Shown here: positions 1 to 39,184 of the stretch, piece by piece | How positions within the stretch are numbered: the stretch's first letter is position 1 | How the letters are laid out: each line of letters begins with the position of its first letter | Virus genome (UHGV): UHGV-1367746 | Origin: a virus | Length of the DNA: 39,184 bases | Strand: one strand, 5' to 3' | Position numbers and translations under genes: made by a program | Notes under the pieces: model-generated | Seen by the model: only the letters and a program-made list of their open reading frames with translations | Told to the model about the DNA's origin: nothing | Databases searched by the model: none

Positions 1-52
1 GTGACTTATGGTTGTGACTTATGGTTGTGACTTATGGTTGTGACTTATGGTT
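1..52. repeat. Tandem array, 4 perfect copies of 13-mer gtgacttatggtt at window start (terminal repeat region)
   Basis: Direct reading: positions 1-13, 14-26, 27-39, 40-52 are identical; same unit repeated at window end. Confidence 0.9.
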
Positions 53-485
53 ATACAGATAGAGACTCAGAGGCAGACCAATAGTCCCTACCTATCGTCT
101 CCACCACCACCGATAGTCATGACCTATCGTTGACTTGAGGTATTTACAGCCGGTCCAACCTTATGATAGACTGGGGTAGGGCCTTGGTCTGGACTTAAAG
201 AGGGCCTATGGGGAGACTTGAGGTTCTTGAACTGTGAGATGTGGTCTCAAACTTTTGGTCCAAAACTCATCGTCCCTCTTAAGGAGCCAGCTACTGTAGG
301 TCAAGGACCGTAGGTCTAAGACCATCGGATGACGACCAGTGAACCAATCAGTAGGTAGACCAGAGGTGAGAGCCTGAATGGTGTTACCTAAAGTCCTTGA
401 CTACAGTAGCTAAGGTCAGTAGAGTGAGTCTTTATCCACTTACTGACCTTAGGTCTTCCGCTCATGAATCGTTACCATGATTGCG

Positions 486-823: not shown

Positions 824-846
824 CTTCCCTATAGTGATAGTTAAGT
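824..846 (-). promoter_or_regulatory. Phage RNAP promoter (phiOR-like), +1 at 829
   Basis: Minus-strand sequence CTTAACTATCACTATAGGGAAGA; matches the 11-member promoter family; T7 also has a promoter after gene 19. Confidence 0.75.
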
Positions 847-940
847 CTAAACTCCTTGTAAAACAGTAGGTTAGACTGGTAGTAACTATAGGTTACTAAC
901 TGCTTATTCATGCAGCTTTCACCTATAGTTATTCATTCAG

Positions 941-2707
941 CTAGTGAAACGTAACGTAGGCCCCTAGTCCCAGCTCGTCGTCCGTATCGTGAGTTACTCG
1001 GACCCCATTGTCCCAGAACTCAGTGTGGATGGACTCGAAGCCTTTCCGTGGGTTCTCCATCTGTTCCTCCAGCCACTCCTCAGTGACTTCACGTTCGCCT
1101 TTGTTGGCATCCTTAGCCATAGACTCAACGAAGAACTGTACACCGATAGCCAGCGCATCAAGTCGGTCATCGTGTGCCAAGGCTCCACGTTCACGAGAGA
1201 TACGGGTCATCTGGTAGAAGAGAGAGTAGATAGGGTTACGAACACCATCCTTATCAGAGGCTGACTGGTAGTCTTGGACGATAGCAGCAGCGTTAACGAT
1301 AAGTCTGTGAGACCCCATGATAGGCTCCAGAACGTCACAGATGCGGAGTTCCTTCTGACCCTTACTCTTCACTTCAGTTACAGCCGCAGGATGGATACGG
1401 GCCGCTACAGGCTTGAATAACTCAAGGTACATACCATCACCGAAGTTACCCTCAATGACGTATTCGTTGACCTTCCACTTACGACCAATCTTAGCCAGAG
1501 CTTCCAGAGTAGAGTCTTCATAACCTCCACGCATACCACCAACTTCCATAGCGAAGATGTAGCCGTTGAGCTGGTATAGTACCGCATATCCAGTTTCATC
1601 CTTACCACGACCACTAGGGTCAATGACCAGAATCTTCTGGGTGTACGAGCTGAAGGCAGAACCTACAGTCTGATACGTGTGGTATGAGTCACCCATGAGT
1701 CCAACGTTAGGAACGTCCTCACGCTTGTTCTGAGGGTTAGGAAGCCATTGGTAGACCATTGGGCTAGACGCTGGGTCCAAGTCTGCTACGATAAGGTCAC
1801 GGAGCTTCAGAGGGTACTTCTCGGCATCACTCAGGTTAGGGTTAAGCATGAACTGTAGAGCGAAGCCAGCTTTACCATAAGACAGCTCACGTTCCTTCAG
1901 GTCCGTATCATCGAATCGTACTTCATCGGTAGGACGCCAGTAGAAGGACTCAGGGTCCTCTTCCAGCTCTGCCTGAAGCATCGGTGCCAGACGGTCGCCG
2001 TAAGACTGCCAGTCCTTCTTATCACGTGGATAACGAGCAGGCCAGATAGTAGTGGTGTATCCACGGCCTTCCAGCTCACGATACAAGGTCATCTCGTTCT
2101 GAGGAGTACCCAGATAGATGATTGTACCTCCCGGCTTCAGGATAGCGTCGAACTCTTTCACAAGCTCTGACAGACGGTCTCTGGCAGCCTGAGTCGCTGA
2201 GTTGTTCGGAACCTCCACGTCATCGGCAATCAGGATGTCAGCACGACTACCAGTCAACTGACCAGTGATACCAACAGACTTAACCGAAGGTGAGTGGTCT
2301 GGCTTGGCTGGCCCAACGTCGAAGCTAATAACCGCATCTCGCTGTCCCTGCTTAGGTTTGAGTTCCTGAAGCTGAGGCATGAGGTCGATGATTCGCTTGA
2401 TGAAGATGGAGTTCGCATCGGCTCGTTCCTTTGAGGCCGACACAATCATGAACTTCAAGTCTGGGTTGTTCCATAACTTCCAGACCACGAAACCACAGGT
2501 CAGAAACGACTTGCCGATACCACGGAAAGCCTGAAGGATGAAGCGGCGATTATCCCCAGCAGCCAGCTTCTTACACATATCTATCTGGCAGCGTGTTGGA
2601 ACCGGAAGGCTAAGAGCTTTCCAGAGAACGAAGATGAAGAATACGAAGTCGTCCCTCATCCTTCGGGTCATTTCTGCCTGTCTTTCAACAGGTGTTTTCT
2701 TAGACAT
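941..2707 (-). CDS. Terminase large subunit (T7 gp19-like, DNA maturase B)
   Basis: 588 aa; extended identity to remembered T7 gp19 ([96 protein letters not shown]). Confidence 0.95.
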
Positions 2708-3137
2708 AGAGTCCCTCCAGCATTAGGTCCCGGACAGAGATAGCCTCCTCTAAAGTAGGACGTGTTGTTCGCATATAGACATTCCCGCGTTTAACCTGAA
2801 TCCTATAACCATTCTGGTGACGGGTAACGCACTTCACTCCCGTCTTAGAGTCATAATGGCTACCCGTATTCCAAGTGTTCTCAGCGGCAGTAACGAGCCG
2901 TAAGTTACTTAAGGTATTATTGCTGGGGTTCCTGTCGATGTGATCTATTTGCATACCATGTGGTATAGGACCATTGGTTAGTTCCCATATCACGCGATGT
3001 GCCCGCTTACTGCCTAGACTTCGTGTCTGTACTATCCAATATCCCATCCGACTTAATGTCCCCACAGGCTTTCCAGTCCTAACGGAGACCAGACCGGATG
3101 GACTCGCCTGGTCCACTTTGTAGTAATCACTTAACAC
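2700..3137 (-). CDS. HNH homing endonuclease (free-standing)
   Basis: 145 aa; HNH motif region [41 protein letters not shown]; inserted between spanin and large terminase genes and overlapping both ends by a few nt. Confidence 0.85.
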
Positions 3138-3564
3138 CTTGGAGCCTCCTTATTGTGTCCTGAAGCGCCTTCTCCTTAAGGTCTGCCTCCTGAGTTATTC
3201 GGATAAGACTTTTAGAAGTTTCTGGGTGTAGTTCGACTCTACCATTAGGGAAGCATCGACTGACATCTGACTCGGTGAGACCTGAGGTGTTGACCTTGAC
3301 GCGCAGCCGCTTATTGTCAGACTTAAGGTCAGCAATAATCCTATCAGTGCTGCCTTCCAACGAGGACATTTCGTCCTGAAACCGTTTGGACACTTTGTTG
3401 ACTTCAGCTTGGACAGCAAGCCTTGTATCTTCCGATGCCTTAAGATTCGAGGTGTATTCTGCATTGACCTTAGCCTCCCACTTATTGTTAGCGGTGTGGT
3501 AGCCACCAGCAAACATCACTGCTGCAAGTAACCACGGAGCCGCTCTCTTTAAAAATTCGAGCAT
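3127..3564 (-). CDS. i-spanin (Rz-like, T7 gp18.5 homolog)
   Basis: 145 aa; N-terminal TM segment; similarity to T7 gp18.5 (MLEFL..., LEGSTDRII.DL.SDNKRLRV.V.T, ALQDTIR.LQ). Confidence 0.85.
   Translation of the reverse strand: MLEFLKRAAPWLLAAVMFAGGYHTANNKWEAKVNAEYTSNLKASEDTRLAVQAEVNKVSKRFQDEMSSLEGSTDRIIADLKSDNKRLRVKVNTSGLTESDVSRCFPNGRVELHPETSKSLIRITQEADLKEKALQDTIRRLQGVK
3195..3419 (-). CDS. o-spanin (Rz1-like lipoprotein) embedded in +1 frame of the Rz gene; start uncertain
   Basis: Embedded frame encodes hydrophobic signal plus lipobox LTISGC followed by short mature peptide; no ATG or GTG near the signal peptide, TTG at 3419 is one candidate (ORF track uses ATG at 3512). Confidence 0.4.
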   Translation of the reverse strand: MLSKLKSTKCPNGFRTKCPRWKAALIGLLLTLSLTISGCASRSTPQVSPSQMSVDASLMVESNYTQKLLKVLSE

Positions 3565-3627
3565 AGTTGCCCTCCCGGTTTATCAGATTTCACGTAGAGT
3601 CGCCTCCACTAGTTAGTGTTAACCATA

Positions 3628-3654
3628 AAGGCCACTACATATAGTAATGACCTT
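3628..3654 (-). promoter_or_regulatory. Conserved RNA hairpin (candidate RNase III processing site, R18.5-like) between small terminase and spanin genes
   Basis: Minus-strand RNA AAGGUCAUUAC-UAUAU-GUAGUGGCCUU forms an 11-bp stem with 2 G.U pairs; member of a 4-copy family with the same stem core. Confidence 0.5.
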
Positions 3655-3665
3655 GAGTCTAACAC

Positions 3666-3929
3666 TTATTGAACACCATACCCTGTGTCATTATCCTCAG
3701 TCGCTGAAAGCACCTTATCGTACTCTGCGTTCAGGGCCTCCATATCAGCCAGCGTCTTCTCGTCAACAGACACCTTGCTTAACACAAAGTTGTGACGAGC
3801 AAGCAGCTTCTCAATGGCGTTGTAGAGCTGAGGTGAACGCTTAGTGTCATCCCGCAAGTCTTGCAGCATGAGTCGAGCACGTTCAGTATCTAGCATTAAG
3901 AGGAACTTCTCTAAGTCCATCTGCGTCAT
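3666..3929 (-). CDS. Terminase small subunit (T7 gp18-like, DNA maturase A)
   Basis: 87 aa; similarity to T7 gp18 (LEMLDT, RSPQLYNAI.KLL.RH.F); synteny. Confidence 0.85.
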   Translation of the reverse strand: MTQMDLEKFLLMLDTERARLMLQDLRDDTKRSPQLYNAIEKLLARHNFVLSKVSVDEKTLADMEALNAEYDKVLSATEDNDTGYGVQ

Positions 3930-6209: not shown

Positions 6210-6232
6210 GTTTCCTATAGTGATAGTTTAGT
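6210..6232 (-). promoter_or_regulatory. Phage RNAP promoter (phi17-like), +1 at 6215
   Basis: Minus-strand CTAAACTATCACTATAGGAAACT upstream of tailspike gene with AAGGAGG RBS. Confidence 0.75.
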
Positions 6233-9200
6233 CCTTGATGTGGATGCCTTGCTCCTCAAACGTTCCAAGTAACAGCTTCTGGGTAATTGGGTCGTTCGGA
6301 ACCAGTTCACGGAACGTATTATACATCCCGGTCATGTAGTCACGCTCGTTGACGCGAGTATCAGCCTTGAGGTAGCCAGCCAAGTTGTAAGCCGAAGCGC
6401 CAACGTTAGCAGCATATCCGAAAGCTGGAACCTGCTCCAAGAAGTTACCAACAACATTCATAACAGGGTCACTTGTAGCCGCACCATACGCGATGGCACG
6501 TTCAGGCTTCTCTGTAGGCGAACGAGGTAGGATAGACGAACGGAGCATCTTAGTGTCCTCATACCCAGCGATGCCACCCAGAATGTTAGCTACCCCAAGT
6601 GGACCACCCAGATGTGAACTACGGGACAGAGCCGCATAACCAATCATCGTCGGGTCAAGAGCTTGCTTGAGGTATTCACGGTCTCTGCCATCCTGCATAG
6701 CGTAAGCCTTGACGTGAGCCTGAGCCATGTAGTAGATACCAGCCAGACCCATAGACATCACGGTAGATAGAGCAGCATCCATCGCTCGGTTGTTCTTCGT
6801 GGCGTTATAGAAGGTTCGCATGGTACGTCCATTGATGGACTTGATGACGAAGTTCTTAAACTGAAGGACAGTCTTAGCGAGAGGACCATAAGCCTTGGCA
6901 TCCATGTTTGACAGCTTGTGGGGCCGGAGTAACGTTTCGTCAGCGATGGTGTCACCCATACGCCACAGGTCCATAGCCCTTGGGTCCTGACTGAACGCCC
7001 TCTTATCCTTGATGGTGTACTTCCCGTCTGGACCACGAGTCACTGACTCACGGATTAATGACTTAATGCCCTTCCACTGCTCGTCAGATATACCAGCGGT
7101 CTTCAGCCAGCGGTCATCGAACTTACGCTTACTACCAGTCAGGCTATGCTCCACGATGTCAGACAGGAAGCCTTGACGTCCAGCATCTAACAGGTAGTTG
7201 GTCGTACCGTTGAGAACTTTAGTGAACGGAGAGCGTACTGCAAGTTCACCAGTGTAATACTTGGCAGTCCCCAGAGCTGTAGCTGTACCACGACCGAGGT
7301 CACTGTAAGACCGCAGACGGTCAATGACATCCTGTTTAGATGGGCGTATTGAGTCATCAAGTTCCTTACCAAAGATAACATTGTGCAGGTCCTTAATCTC
7401 TGAGGCCCCAACCTTCTTGTTACGGAAGGCTAGGTCACGGAAAATTGGGACTCCATGCAGCATTGCACGAACGTTACCACGGGCCAGCATACCACCAATC
7501 TCCGTTAAGTTCTGAACACCCATATAGGCATTCTTAGCGAAGAACGATAGGTCTGTCATTGTGCGCATCACGGTAGCGAAGGCTGCATCGTCAGCACCAT
7601 CACGTCGAGCACGACCAGTTAGAATCTTAAGTGTGTCACGCAAGGTAGATACTTCACCTTTCAACTTTCCGTCATCACCAGCCTTGTTCATCATGGTCTC
7701 AACCAAGTCCTTCATTTCTTTCGTTGTCTTGCCTGTACCAGCCATAATAGCAATGTCACCATTAACTCGACGGTTGTATGCCGGGACAATCTTGTCCATG
7801 TCCCACTCACGCAGGTTGTTGACACTGAAGGTTTGACCATTAGGAAGAACTATTGACATATCGCTGTCGAACAGGTTACGAGCCTCAAGGAAGCTGTTGT
7901 TCTCCAGACCCACCAGACCATTGATGTTCTCTTCCATTACGGATGAACGCTCGAACTGCTCGGTGTGAGAGATACCATAAGCCTTATCGTTGGCGTACTT
8001 ATCTACCGCAGCCGCAAGTCCTTCTGGAGTCAACGTAGGGTCAGCCTCTAAGAGTGCCTCGTCCACACGTTTCTTGACCTCAGGTCGAGACGCATAGCTG
8101 GTCAACCATGACTTCTTGATGGCCTCCTGTAGTGCCTCTGGACTTCCAAGTTCCTTGATGTACAGCTCCTTCATCTGGTTGCTATATACATGTGGGACGT
8201 AGGTTCCCTTGAATCGGCTACCCGGAAAGATAGACTGAGCGTCTGGACGACCAAACATCGCCGGGTTCTCCATCATCTCACGCTTGGCGTCAAACTGGTT
8301 CTTCAGCAGGTCATAGACTTTCAGTTCTCCCGGAGTCAGTTCAGCCTTCAGGTTCCCACTTCCGTCTTCAATAGCCATAGACACACGCTGGTAGATGTCC
8401 TGACGGAATGCGCCAGAGTCTCTCCAGAATGCTGTCTGGAAGTATGGGTCCTTGAGCGCCTCAGTAACCGCGTCGTCGATGTCGTTGTAGAACCGATGGT
8501 CCACAGCACGAAGTCTCTCGAATACGTCTGACGCAGTGGTCCCGATTTTACCTGAGGCCCCTGACTGCATACCGGTTGGTGAACGCACTAAGTCGGCAGC
8601 GACTCCACGAATCTCAGGGTTCTCAGACCGAAGCAGCTTCAGGCCAATCTCAGTTAGTCCACCAAGGTTCACACCAGCAGCTGCACGTTCAGGCTCAATC
8701 ACTTCGTCAAAGACCTTACGTGTCTTAGGGTTCAGAGGGTTCTCACCAATCAGTATTGAACCATCTTCAAGTCGTACACTACCCGGCTCATTCGGAACGT
8801 CAGCTAACTTAACGCCTTGATGACTAAAGGTCTCCTCACCTTCTTGAATAGGTAGACGAGACAGGTCCTGACCATCAACGTTACGGGCTGTCTCACGAGC
8901 TTCCAGACGTGTGGCTGGACCAGCGAACTCGTTAGTGTTACGACCTAAGGCTCTGCCTAAACCATCAGCGATAGCAGTCATACCTCCACCGAAGAGAGCA
9001 CCGCCAAGGATAGCCTCAGCCACATGAGCATCACCGCCAGCCACTGAGGTACGGGCCATCTCGGACACACCAGCCAGTGCTCCAGATTGAGCAGCCACGG
9101 TGAACATCTTGTTTACTAGCTTACCACCTTTACCAACCTGTCCAGCTATAGGAACGTAGGTCAGCGGGTCTACACCAGCACCAATCACACCAGCAGCTAA

Positions 9201-33381: not shown

Positions 33382-33420
33382 TTGTAGCTCCAGTTGTTTA
33401 GGTTATAGGGTTAATCATGA

Positions 33421-33445
33421 AGGCCACGACTTTAAGTCATGACCT
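33421..33445 (-). promoter_or_regulatory. Conserved RNA hairpin (candidate RNase III site, R1.1-like)
   Basis: Minus RNA AGGUCAUGAC-UUAAA-GUCGUGGCCU, 10-bp stem with 2 G.U; immediately downstream of the promoter at 33457. Confidence 0.5.
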
Positions 33446-33451
33446 TGAGTC

Positions 33452-33474
33452 TAATCCTATAGTGATAGTTTAGG
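33452..33474 (-). promoter_or_regulatory. Phage RNAP promoter (phi1.1-like), +1 at 33457
   Basis: Minus-strand CCTAAACTATCACTATAGGATTA. Confidence 0.75.
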
Positions 33475-37323: not shown

Positions 37324-37442
37324 AGTGATTTCCGTTTAATACAATCGTATATCCCATAACCTATCATCCAGATAACTGGCGCTAGGCATACCAAATATCC
37401 CACACTCATAGTTAACCCCTATCAATGTAAGTGATAATCTTT

Positions 37443-38943: not shown

Positions 38944-39080
38944 AGGTAATTTGAAATAATATTGAGTAAGCTATCGTCGGCCCCATGGTGTAAGAGGATA
39001 TAGTCTTTGACTAACATGTCTTTGACCTTAAGTCTATAGCTGTGTGTCGATTAACTGTAGGCCTTTGACTGTAGGCGTTG

Positions 39081-39184
39081 GTGTCTTATGGTTGTGACTT
39101 ATGGTTGTGACTTATGGTTGTGACTTATGGTTGTGACTTATGGTTGTGACTTATGGTTGTGACTTATGGTTGTGACTTATGGTT
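39081..39184. repeat. Tandem array of 13-mer gtgacttatggtt (7 perfect copies plus 1 variant gtgtcttatggtt) at window end (terminal repeat region)
   Basis: Direct reading 39081-39184; same unit as positions 1-52, so both genome ends carry the array. Confidence 0.9.

What the first reader, a model, noticed from the sequence alone, without database searches (positions are those of the whole stretch)
2700..3137. Free-standing HNH endonuclease inserted between spanin and large terminase genes
T7 has no gene between 18.5/18.7 and 19. Here a 145-aa ORF with a clear HNH motif ([12 protein letters not shown]...AAEN) occupies that junction and overlaps both neighbours by a few nt, which is typical of a mobile homing endonuclease gene that invaded a conserved junction. 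HNH nucleases next to terminase genes can also take part in packaging in some phages, so it may be selfish or co-opted.
Basis: partly seen in the sequence, partly recalled or inferred. Interest (0 to 1): 0.5.

Follow-up and report, generated by a model that had tools for sequence, protein, structure and literature searches.

The report
Known HNH homing endonuclease gene
A small selfish nuclease gene sits between the lysis (spanin) and DNA-packaging (large terminase) genes of this T7-like phage; the same gene at the same spot is already annotated and published in close relatives, so it is ordinary, apart from a tidy trail of in-frame deletion scars in phages that lost it.

Summary
Window 2700-3137 (- strand) is an intact 145-aa ORF with a strong HNH_3 match (E 6.7e-21). 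Its predicted fold is an I-HmuI-like nuclease followed by an AP2-like DNA-binding domain. It overlaps the Rz spanin stop by 11 nt and the gene 19 ATG by 8 nt.

The window is a Kayfunavirus (K1F group of T7-like phages). The same gene at the same junction is annotated in Citrobacter phage CR44b (gene 3.8A, "predicted homing endonuclease", 98% identical). It is also described in Hafnia phage Ca.

Its distribution is sporadic:
- 14 phage records carry this allele and 41 carry a 67%-identical allele.
- One record carries a third, unrelated HNH at the same junction.
- Seven records have a clean empty site; most relatives, including T7, have nothing there.
- Four independent internal deletions leave remnants.

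Where present, the gene is under purifying selection (dN/dS 0.06-0.27). This supports a free-standing homing endonuclease gene and argues against a packaging cofactor. Homing itself is inferred, not shown.

One small new point: all four deletion remnants stay in frame and end at the TAA that overlaps the terminase ATG. This suggests a constraint from terminase translation.

Novelty: already known. Interest: low.

The parts
2700..3137 (-). Free-standing HNH homing endonuclease gene, 145 aa, GTG start (equivalent to CR44b gene 3.8A)
   Evidence: ORF list. Pfam HNH_3 E 6.7e-21. phrog_99 E 4.8e-40. 97.5% nt identity to CR44b 3.8A. AlphaFold2 mean pLDDT 91.6.
2877..3008 (-). HNH_3 catalytic core, residues 44-87 (H47, D65-H66, N74, N78, N87)
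   Evidence: Pfam stretch 44-87. Aligns with the I-HmuI motif DHkDgNkdNN..NLRwVT. H47, D65, H66, L79, R80, N87 and N90 are invariant in 29 homologues.
2718..2840 (-). C-terminal AP2-like DNA-binding domain (about residues 100-140: three strands plus a helix)
3145..3150 (-). Shine-Dalgarno AGGAGG for the HNH GTG, lying inside the last Rz codons. In empty-site phages the same AGGAGG precedes the terminase GTG start.
   Evidence: Sequence. Comparison with pO2.
2700..2718 (-). Gene 19 translation-initiation region carried inside the HNH 3' end: GGAGGG (2713-2718), a 5-nt spacer, ATG (2705-2707), and the HNH stop TAA (2700-2702) overlapping as ATGTCTAA
   Evidence: Sequence. The same 8-nt ATGnnTAA overlap occurs in 49-51%-identical homologues from metagenomic T7-like contigs. 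It is retained in every deletion remnant.
3110..3114 (-). 5' copy of the GGACC microhomology used by the 384-nt deletion seen in phages KM02, Penshu1 and R1
2726..2730 (-). 3' copy of the GGACC microhomology (right end of the 384-nt deletion)
   Evidence: The 31-nt match of KM02 and R1 to window 2700-2730 ends here.
941..2707 (-). Gene 19, terminase large subunit. Its first ~70 nt (MSKKTP... allele) occur in only 69 records, most of which carry this HNH or its remnants; 7 carry a clean empty site with a close variant (MANKKTP).
   Evidence: 78-nt allele census.
3127..3564 (-). Gene 18.5 (Rz i-spanin), with the embedded 18.7 o-spanin. Its last codons and stop (GTT AAG TGA) lie inside the HNH 5' end.
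   Evidence: CR44b annotation.
6214..6235 (-). Nearest upstream phage-RNAP promoter (one of an 11-copy family; - strand reads ...TAAACTATCACTATAGG). There is no promoter between it and the HNH, so the HNH is read as part of the late 17-19 transcript.
   Evidence: Repeat family D2. The promoter call rests on resemblance to the T7 consensus, which is my own knowledge.
828..849 (-). Next phage promoter copy, downstream of gene 19
   Evidence: Repeat family D2. CR44b annotates a promoter at the equivalent place.

Best explanation
The ORF is a free-standing homing endonuclease gene of the HNH-plus-AP2 class. It has an I-HmuI-like nuclease core and a C-terminal AP2-like DNA-binding domain. It has settled exactly at the Rz(18.5)/gene 19 junction of a Kayfunavirus.

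Shown here:
- The domain content and the intact catalytic residues.
- The patchy distribution among close relatives.
- A precise empty site.
- Several independent losses.
- Purifying selection where the gene is present.
- Anatomy of the insert: it takes over the AGGAGG and GTG position that serve as the terminase start in empty-site genomes. It supplies a new stop for Rz in its first 11 nt. It supplies a new Shine-Dalgarno and ATG for gene 19 in its last 19 nt.
- It has no promoter of its own and lies in the late 17-19 transcript.

Inferred:
- In a mixed infection the enzyme nicks or cuts the HNH-less allele at or near the Rz/19 junction.
- Repair from the HNH-carrying genome copies in the gene together with the first codons of gene 19.
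- The carrier genome is protected because the insertion splits or alters the target.

The gene is dispensable for packaging.
For: Domains and fold:
- HNH_3 E 6.7e-21.
- The model is confident, pLDDT 91.6.
- Catalytic H/D-H/N residues are invariant across homologues.

Distribution:
- 14 records carry this allele (type A) and 41 carry a 67%-aa-identical allele (type B), out of 954 records sharing the segment.
- A third HNH, only 36% identical, sits at the same junction in pO91.
- TM1 and EFA-1, the closest genomes overall, have nothing there, and neither does T7.
- pO2-type genomes (7 records) have a clean empty site with a near-identical gene 19 5' allele.

Losses: four independent microhomology deletions were found. 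They are 384, 396, 294 and 365+1 nt long.

Selection: dN/dS is 0.06-0.20 within type A and 0.27 between types A and B.

Wider family: 49-51%-identical homologues in metagenomic T7-like contigs also sit directly upstream of the terminase gene with the same 8-nt overlap.

Prior work:
- CR44b 3.8A is annotated 'predicted homing endonuclease'.
- Hafnia phage Ca ORF48 is described as an HNH homing endonuclease gene, and a spontaneous 397-bp deletion was seen.
- HNH+AP2 homing endonuclease genes are a recognised class that often sits next to terminase genes (PMC10448857).
Against: - No cleavage, nicking or homing has been demonstrated for this protein or its close relatives, here or in the papers read.
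- The target site is unknown.
- Pfam AP2 is not significant for this protein, so the DNA-binding domain call rests on predicted structure and on relatives.
- The Hafnia phage Ca study linked loss of the gene to small plaques. Taken at face value, that hints at some benefit or a polar effect rather than pure selfishness.
- Sporadic distribution could in principle also arise from ordinary mosaic recombination.
Confidence: 0.82

Rival explanations
1. It is a packaging cofactor. Like the HNH protein gp74 of phage HK97, the nuclease would work with the terminase to cut concatemers and would be part of the packaging module.
For: It sits immediately upstream of, and overlaps, the terminase large subunit gene. 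The Hafnia phage Ca authors raised this idea and saw small plaques in populations dominated by the deletion genome. Barth et al. note that the two readings are not mutually exclusive for HK97-like phages.
Against: - It is absent from about 90% of related genomes, including T7 and the closest relatives TM1 and EFA-1.
- Isolated phages with the same terminase allele have deleted it (KM02, Penshu1, R1, Ro45lw) or never had it (pO2, IME177).
- It belongs to the I-HmuI-like HNH_3 family with an AP2 domain, i.e. homing-endonuclease architecture.
- T7-type packaging needs only gp18 and gp19 (established knowledge).
Confidence: 0.03
2. It is a domesticated nuclease kept because it helps the phage. It might damage co-infecting competitor phages (interference competition or marker exclusion) or host or defence-element DNA, rather than merely copying itself.
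For: Purifying selection where present. Late co-expression with essential genes. The small-plaque association of the deletion in Hafnia phage Ca. From my own knowledge: intron and free-standing endonucleases that act as weapons between phages have been reported.
Against: A gene that must keep homing to persist is expected to show the same purifying selection. Repeated natural loss argues against a strong benefit. Nothing identifies a target outside the junction. This is not really exclusive of the main explanation, because cutting a rival's terminase region is both homing and competition.
Confidence: 0.1
3. It is a decaying relic: a former homing endonuclease gene that no longer makes an active enzyme in this phage.
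For: Deletion remnants in relatives show that the element does decay. The GenBank record of Hafnia phage yong1 has a +1 T frameshift in the gene.
Against: In the window the ORF is full length. All invariant catalytic residues are present. It has a good Shine-Dalgarno. Substitutions among type A copies are mostly synonymous (dN/dS 0.06-0.20).
Confidence: 0.05

Closest known systems
Citrobacter phage CR44b gene 3.8A, and the same gene in Hafnia phage Ca/vB_HpaA_yong1 ORF48, Salmonella phages CHRF_30030, ST56 and others
   Same: The same gene at the same Rz/gene 19 junction with the same overlaps. 97.5-98% nt identity; 2 aa differences from CR44b. Annotated 'predicted homing endonuclease'. Described in PMC8861465.
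   Different: Only point substitutions. The yong1 record has an extra T that shifts the first 19 codons.
CR8-type '3.8A' HNH (type B; Caroctavirus CR8, RDN8.1, PRF-SP/STP-SP Salmonella phages)
   Same: Same junction, same length (145-146 aa), same HNH_3 architecture. The last ~90 nt and the start of gene 19 are nearly identical to the window.
   Different: Only 67% aa and 72% nt identity over the first 114 codons, where synonymous sites are saturated. ATG start in an ATGA overlap with the Rz stop, instead of a GTG 8 nt upstream of the stop.
I-HmuI (Bacillus phage SPO1 intron-encoded HNH nicking homing endonuclease, PDB 1U3E)
   Same: Best structural and sequence match among solved structures: an N-terminal beta-sheet DNA-contact region plus the HNH core, with the motif DH..N..NN...NLR.VT...N.
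   Different: I-HmuI is intron-encoded and has a helix-turn-helix C-terminal domain (my knowledge). Here the gene is free-standing and the C-terminal domain is AP2-like. About 22% identity.
HNH-AP2 homing endonucleases ('IPA-HNH' of vibriophage ICP1; Barth, Dunham and Seed 2023)
   Same: N-terminal HNH plus C-terminal AP2 architecture, free-standing, often next to essential genes including terminase genes.
   Different: Different phage lineage. The AP2 domain here is detected by fold only. I made no direct sequence comparison with the ICP1 proteins.
T7 gp3.8 (and HNH genes near the ligase gene in other T7-like phages)
   Same: Same HNH_3 family within the same phage subfamily. 36% identity over 68% of the protein (T7), 40-43% (P1338, PH1061).
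   Different: Different genomic site (early/DNA-metabolism region). T7 gp3.8 is shorter and aligns only as far as query residue 105, so it lacks most of the C-terminal domain.
HK97 gp74-type terminase-associated HNH proteins
   Same: An HNH nuclease encoded next to terminase genes.
   Different: The HK97 type is conserved and required for cos cleavage in HK97-like siphophages (Kala et al. 2014, as cited). Here the gene is sporadic, dispensable, and in a T7-like packaging system.

Membership tests
HNH_3 / I-HmuI-like HNH endonucleases | Significant match to the family profile | tested here: met
   PF13392 E 6.7e-21, 74.1 bits against a cut-off of 24.8.
HNH_3 / I-HmuI-like HNH endonucleases | Catalytic His (general base) and metal-binding Asp/Asn residues of the beta-beta-alpha-metal motif are present | tested here: met
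   D65-H66, N74, N78 and N87 align with I-HmuI DH..NN..N...N. H47, D65, H66, N87 and N90 are invariant in 29 homologues.
HNH_3 / I-HmuI-like HNH endonucleases | Fold similarity to a solved member | tested here: met
HNH_3 / I-HmuI-like HNH endonucleases | Metal-dependent DNA nicking or cleavage | not testable with these tools
   Needs purified protein.
HNH-AP2 (IPA-HNH) homing endonucleases | C-terminal AP2 DNA-binding domain after the HNH domain | tested here: inconclusive
Free-standing homing endonuclease gene (functional definition) | Presence/absence polymorphism among close relatives at one fixed site | tested here: met
Free-standing homing endonuclease gene (functional definition) | An intact empty site exists that differs only by the insert | tested here: met
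   pO2-type junction: AGGAGGTTGCGTGGCGAATAAGAAAACACC, with otherwise near-identical flanks. 7 records.
Free-standing homing endonuclease gene (functional definition) | The enzyme cuts the empty allele at or near the insertion site | not testable with these tools
   No biochemical data found.
Free-standing homing endonuclease gene (functional definition) | Super-Mendelian transfer with co-conversion of flanks in mixed infection | not testable with these tools
   Indirect evidence only. The gene 19 5' allele is found almost only with the HNH, its remnants or the pO2-type site. Types A and B share a recombinant 3' end.
Terminase-associated packaging HNH (HK97 gp74 type) | Conserved in all members of the phage group | tested here: not met
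   Absent from most relatives and from T7.
Terminase-associated packaging HNH (HK97 gp74 type) | Required for a viable phage | tested here: not met
   Isolated phages KM02, Penshu1, R1 and Ro45lw carry only 17-23-codon remnants.

The most novel reading that the evidence does not exclude
The element may be entrenched through translation of the essential terminase gene.

The anatomy:
- The HNH ORF starts where the terminase ORF starts in empty-site genomes.
- It ends in an ATGTCTAA overlap with the new terminase start.

The observation: all four independent natural deletions (384, 396, 294 and 365+1 nt) keep a 13-47-codon mini-ORF. Each mini-ORF runs from the HNH start to that same TAA. One of the four needed a second, compensating 1-nt deletion to do so.

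The reading: only in-frame losses survive.
- One out-of-frame class would extend the terminase at its N-terminus.
- The other would send ribosomes across its start site.

So the homing endonuclease gene has made its own removal costly and leaves a functional 'bridge' ORF behind. This would also explain the small-plaque phenotype reported for deletion variants of Hafnia phage Ca, as a polar effect on gene 19.
Probability: 0.35. Interest if true: 0.4.

Novelty: already known. Interest (0 to 1): 0.2.

Why it matters
For the scan, this finding can be closed as a correctly recognised, already annotated selfish gene. It says nothing new about T7-type packaging.

Its modest value is as a clean natural series for one homing endonuclease site. 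All of these occur within one well-sampled, easily manipulated phage genus:
- naive alleles;
- a precise empty site;
- three different HNH cassettes;
- a recombinant between two of the cassettes;
- four independent deletion scars.

That makes two things easy to measure directly: homing, and the cost of losing the element through its effect on terminase translation. It also matters practically. Kayfunaviruses are used in phage-therapy cocktails, and a homing nuclease can move flanking terminase and lysis alleles between cocktail members.

Tried and rejected
- Paralogues in the window: tblastn of the protein against the window found only the gene itself. CR44b's second HNH (3.8B), Ro45lw's and pO91's HNH genes hit only this locus, at 32-36% identity. 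The window therefore has one HNH of this family.
- Pfam at E up to 10 gave no AP2 or NUMOD hit for the window protein. The AP2 call had to come from structure.
- Base composition: no GC anomaly over the insert, 0.47-0.49 against 0.46-0.53 in the flanks. This gives no compositional evidence of foreign origin.
- The gapped pattern search for remnants in IMG/VR found nothing. The simple 21-nt pattern found 4 viral contigs and 11 metagenome contigs. Seven of the 11 metagenome hits (L029, L031-L035, L037) are unrelated chance matches.
- Enterobacter phage 03_vB_Eclo_IJM looked like a degraded HNH, but its terminase is also split into five ORFs. I treated it as a low-quality assembly and ignored it.
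- The Rz 3' allele is not linked to the HNH. Type B occurs with both Rz alleles, so the divergence between the window and TM1 inside Rz is ordinary mosaicism, not clearly a co-conversion tract.
- The CR8/CR44b genome announcement does not discuss the gene.
- The exact end-points of the 397-bp Hafnia phage Ca deletion are in a figure that is not held. I inferred them from the only 4-nt or longer repeat at that spacing (TGGA). A metagenomic contig carries exactly that junction (L030).

Full report

Yes. Window 2700..3137 on the - strand is a 145-aa ORF.
- It starts with GTG at 3135-3137, preceded by AGGAGG at 3145-3150.
- It ends with TAA at 2700-2702.
- It overlaps the stop of the upstream ORF 3127..3564 by 11 nt.
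- It overlaps the ATG of the downstream ORF 941..2707 by 8 nt (ATGTCTAA).

The upstream ORF is the Rz-type i-spanin with the embedded T7-type o-spanin. The downstream ORF is the T7-type large terminase. Further upstream lie the small terminase subunit and the holin.

It also matches PHROG 99, 'HNH endonuclease', at E 4.8e-40.

In the T7 reference record, gene 18.5 ends at 37348 and gene 19 starts at 37370, with nothing between them.

**2. What genome is this?**

The segment 1-6200 matches 954 phage records. The best are Kayfunavirus genomes (Studiervirinae, the K1F group of T7-like phages) at 93-96% identity. The window is in reverse orientation relative to the usual T7 map.

An 11-copy repeat, CCTATAGTGATAGTTTAG on the + strand, reads ...TAAACTATCACTATAGG on the - strand. 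It resembles the T7 promoter consensus (my knowledge), so I take it as the phage-RNAP promoter family. The copies nearest the ORF are at 6214-6235, upstream of gene 17, and at 828-849, downstream of gene 19. The HNH gene therefore has no promoter of its own and belongs to the late 17-19 transcript.

**3. The protein.**

An AlphaFold2 model built on 29 homologues is confident (mean pLDDT 91.6).
- Residues H47, D65, H66, L79, R80, N87 and N90 are invariant in the homologue alignment. They correspond to the I-HmuI-type catalytic motif.
- The Pfam AP2 profile itself is not significant for this protein, although more distant homologues do carry it.

The architecture is therefore HNH plus an AP2-like domain. 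This is a recognised class of homing endonucleases, called 'IPA-HNH' by Barth et al. 2023, who also note that such genes often lie beside terminase genes.

**4. Distribution at this junction.**

| Class | Examples | Records |
|---|---|---|
| Type A: this allele, ≥95% nt | CR44b, Hafnia phage yong1/Ca, CHRF and ST Salmonella phages, TH16, AN17P1 | 14 |
| Type B: 72% nt, 67% aa | CR8, RDN8.1, PRF-SP/STP-SP/CRW-SP Salmonella phages, some Enterobacter phages | 41 |
| Type C: a different HNH_3 protein, 128 aa, 36% identical | pO91 | 1 |
| Clean empty site | pO2, IME177, four unannotated Kayfunavirus genomes, one partial record | 7 |
| Naive junction with a divergent gene 19 5' end | TM1, EFA-1 (closest genomes overall), T7, and the great majority | most of 954 |

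In the empty-site genomes the junction reads ...AGGAGGTTGCGTGGCGAATAAGAAAACACC..., and the terminase GTG start overlaps the Rz stop by 11 nt.

A census with the first 78 nt of the window's gene 19 found this allele in only 69 records. Nearly all of them carry type A, type B, a remnant, or the pO2-type site.

More distant homologues (49-51% aa) occur in two metagenomic T7-like contigs. They also sit directly upstream of the terminase gene, with the same 8-nt ATGnnTAA overlap, although their upstream neighbours differ. The family as a whole is tied to the 5' end of gene 19.

**5. Anatomy of the insertion.**

I compared pO2 with the window.
- The insert lies exactly at the Rz-stop/terminase-start overlap.
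- The AGGAGG that precedes the terminase GTG in pO2 precedes the HNH GTG in the window.
- The first 11 nt of the HNH ORF supply the last Rz codons and its stop.
- The last 19 nt supply a new GGAGGG, spacer and ATG for gene 19.
- Only two or three terminal codons of each neighbour are changed.

Types A and B are nearly identical over the last ~90 nt of the HNH and the start of gene 19. They are saturated at synonymous sites before that: dS 0.18 against about 3. So the cassettes have recombined within the 3' end.

**6. Losses.**

Four different internal deletions of the HNH ORF exist, each flanked by a 4-5-nt microhomology in the full-length gene.

| Deletion | Microhomology | Found in |
|---|---|---|
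| 384 nt | GGACC | KM02, Penshu1, R1 (R1 has an extra TAA triplet) |
| 396 nt | TGGA | metagenomic contig L030 |
| 294 nt | ACCAG | metagenomic contig L036 |
| 365 nt plus a separate 1-nt deletion | roughly CTAC | Ro45lw |

Because the end-points are nested inside the ORF and differ from one another, these are derived losses and not alternative empty sites.

The spontaneous 397-bp deletion reported in Hafnia phage Ca cultures fits the TGGA event. That phage's record has a 439-nt allele with one extra T, and TGGA is the only repeat of 4 nt or more at a spacing of 397.

**7. Selection.**

Where the gene is intact it is under purifying selection. dN/dS is 0.06-0.20 among type A copies and 0.27 between types A and B. 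This fits an enzyme that must stay active. It does not distinguish selfish from useful.

**8. Mechanism and rivals.**

The best-supported reading (confidence about 0.8) is a free-standing homing endonuclease gene, expressed late. In mixed infections it would nick or cut HNH-less genomes at or near the Rz/19 junction. Recombinational repair would then copy it in along with the first codons of gene 19. The carrier is protected because the insertion disrupts the site. The domain content, the distribution, the empty site and the losses are shown. Cleavage, target and transfer are inferred.

The packaging-cofactor idea (HK97 gp74-like) is not supported.
- The gene is missing from most relatives.
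- It has been deleted in viable isolates that carry the same terminase allele.
- It belongs to a different HNH subfamily.
- T7-type packaging does not need such a factor.

A role as a weapon against co-infecting relatives is compatible with, and hard to separate from, homing. A decaying relic is unlikely for the window copy, which is intact with mostly synonymous variation.

**9. One thing that may be new.**

All four independent deletions are net multiples of three. Each leaves a mini-ORF of 13, 17(18), 23 or 47 codons. Each mini-ORF starts at the HNH start and stops at the same TAA that overlaps the gene 19 ATG.

In Ro45lw the 365-nt deletion shifts the frame, and a second 1-nt deletion 10 nt before the ATG restores it.

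The chance expectation is about (1/3)^4 = 0.012. Caveats: n is small, and the events were found by a pattern that covers only the gene 19 start.

A plausible cause follows from the anatomy. The HNH start is a strong initiation site.
- One alternative frame is the gene 19 frame itself, so a deletion shifting into it would fuse extra residues onto the terminase N-terminus.
- The other alternative frame would carry ribosomes 35 nt past the gene 19 ATG.

Only in-frame losses would then leave terminase translation undisturbed. This could also underlie the small-plaque phenotype reported for Hafnia phage Ca. It is an inference and needs the experiment described under next steps.

**10. Novelty and verdict.**

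The same gene (98% aa identity) at the same junction has been annotated since 2014 as a predicted homing endonuclease in CR44b. It was described, with its overlaps and a deletion variant, in Hafnia phage Ca in 2022. The class and its habit of sitting beside terminase genes are known.

The finding is correct and its interpretation is supported, but it is already known. The in-frame remnant series is a minor, testable addition. Interest 0.2.

Noticed in passing
window 1-65 and 39068-39184: Tandem 13-nt repeats (GTGACTTATGGTT) at both ends of the window: 8 overlapping 52-nt copies reported. The window looks like a whole phage genome whose ends fall in a repeat array, probably the terminal-repeat/concatemer-junction region of a T7-like genome.
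   Followed up: no
window 828, 6214, 13491, 18464, 19470, 22291, 28373, 30724, 31700, 33456, 36776 (22 nt each, + strand coordinates): An 11-copy family, CCTATAGTGATAGTTTAG. On the - strand it reads TAAACTATCACTATAGG, which resembles the T7 promoter consensus. These are presumably the phage-RNAP promoters, all pointing the same way as the genes.
   Followed up: partly
window 3566-3668 (- strand), repeated at 84% identity at 33406-33454: The spacer between gene 18 and gene 18.5 folds into a stable hairpin (-33.5 kcal/mol, z -3.85). A related copy lies elsewhere in the genome (family D7). It is in the position of the T7 R18.5 RNase III site, so it is probably an RNase III processing site.
   Followed up: partly
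window 903-941; compare L002 (CR44b) 309-742, L004 (Ro45lw) 190-732, L009 (pO91) 1-378: A second nuclease-gene hot spot lies just downstream of gene 19. CR44b (gene 3.8B) and Ro45lw carry annotated HNH genes there, about 32-34% identical to the one studied; pO91 has an unnamed ORF at that position that I did not check. The window has only about 39 nt at that place.
   Followed up: partly
L007 (Hafnia phage vB_HpaA_yong1, MK610268) 2501-2939: The GenBank record has one extra T (CCGTTTAGG against CCGTTAGG), which breaks the usual HNH frame after codon 19. The published 143-aa ORF48 starts instead at a GTG 7 nt downstream in another frame. This is either a real frameshift or a homopolymer sequencing error.
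   Followed up: partly
L009 (Escherichia phage pO91, OR204650) 2127-2513: A third, unrelated HNH_3 gene (128 aa, weak AP2 hit E 0.0047) occupies the same Rz/gene 19 junction. It shares only its first four codons with the window gene and overlaps a different gene 19 5' allele by 29 nt. It is annotated only as a hypothetical protein.
   Followed up: partly
alignment A3 columns 631-760 (window about 2618-2790): Type A and type B HNH genes are about 60% identical over most of their length. They become 97-100% identical from codon 115 through the start of gene 19. This is a recombination joint inside the nuclease gene, and it means the C-terminal helix of the AP2-like domain is shared between the two cassettes.
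   Followed up: partly
L022 (Enterobacter phage 03_vB_Eclo_IJM, OP272492): The terminase large subunit is annotated as five consecutive fragments. The record is probably full of indel errors and should not be used for presence/absence or frame analyses.
   Followed up: no
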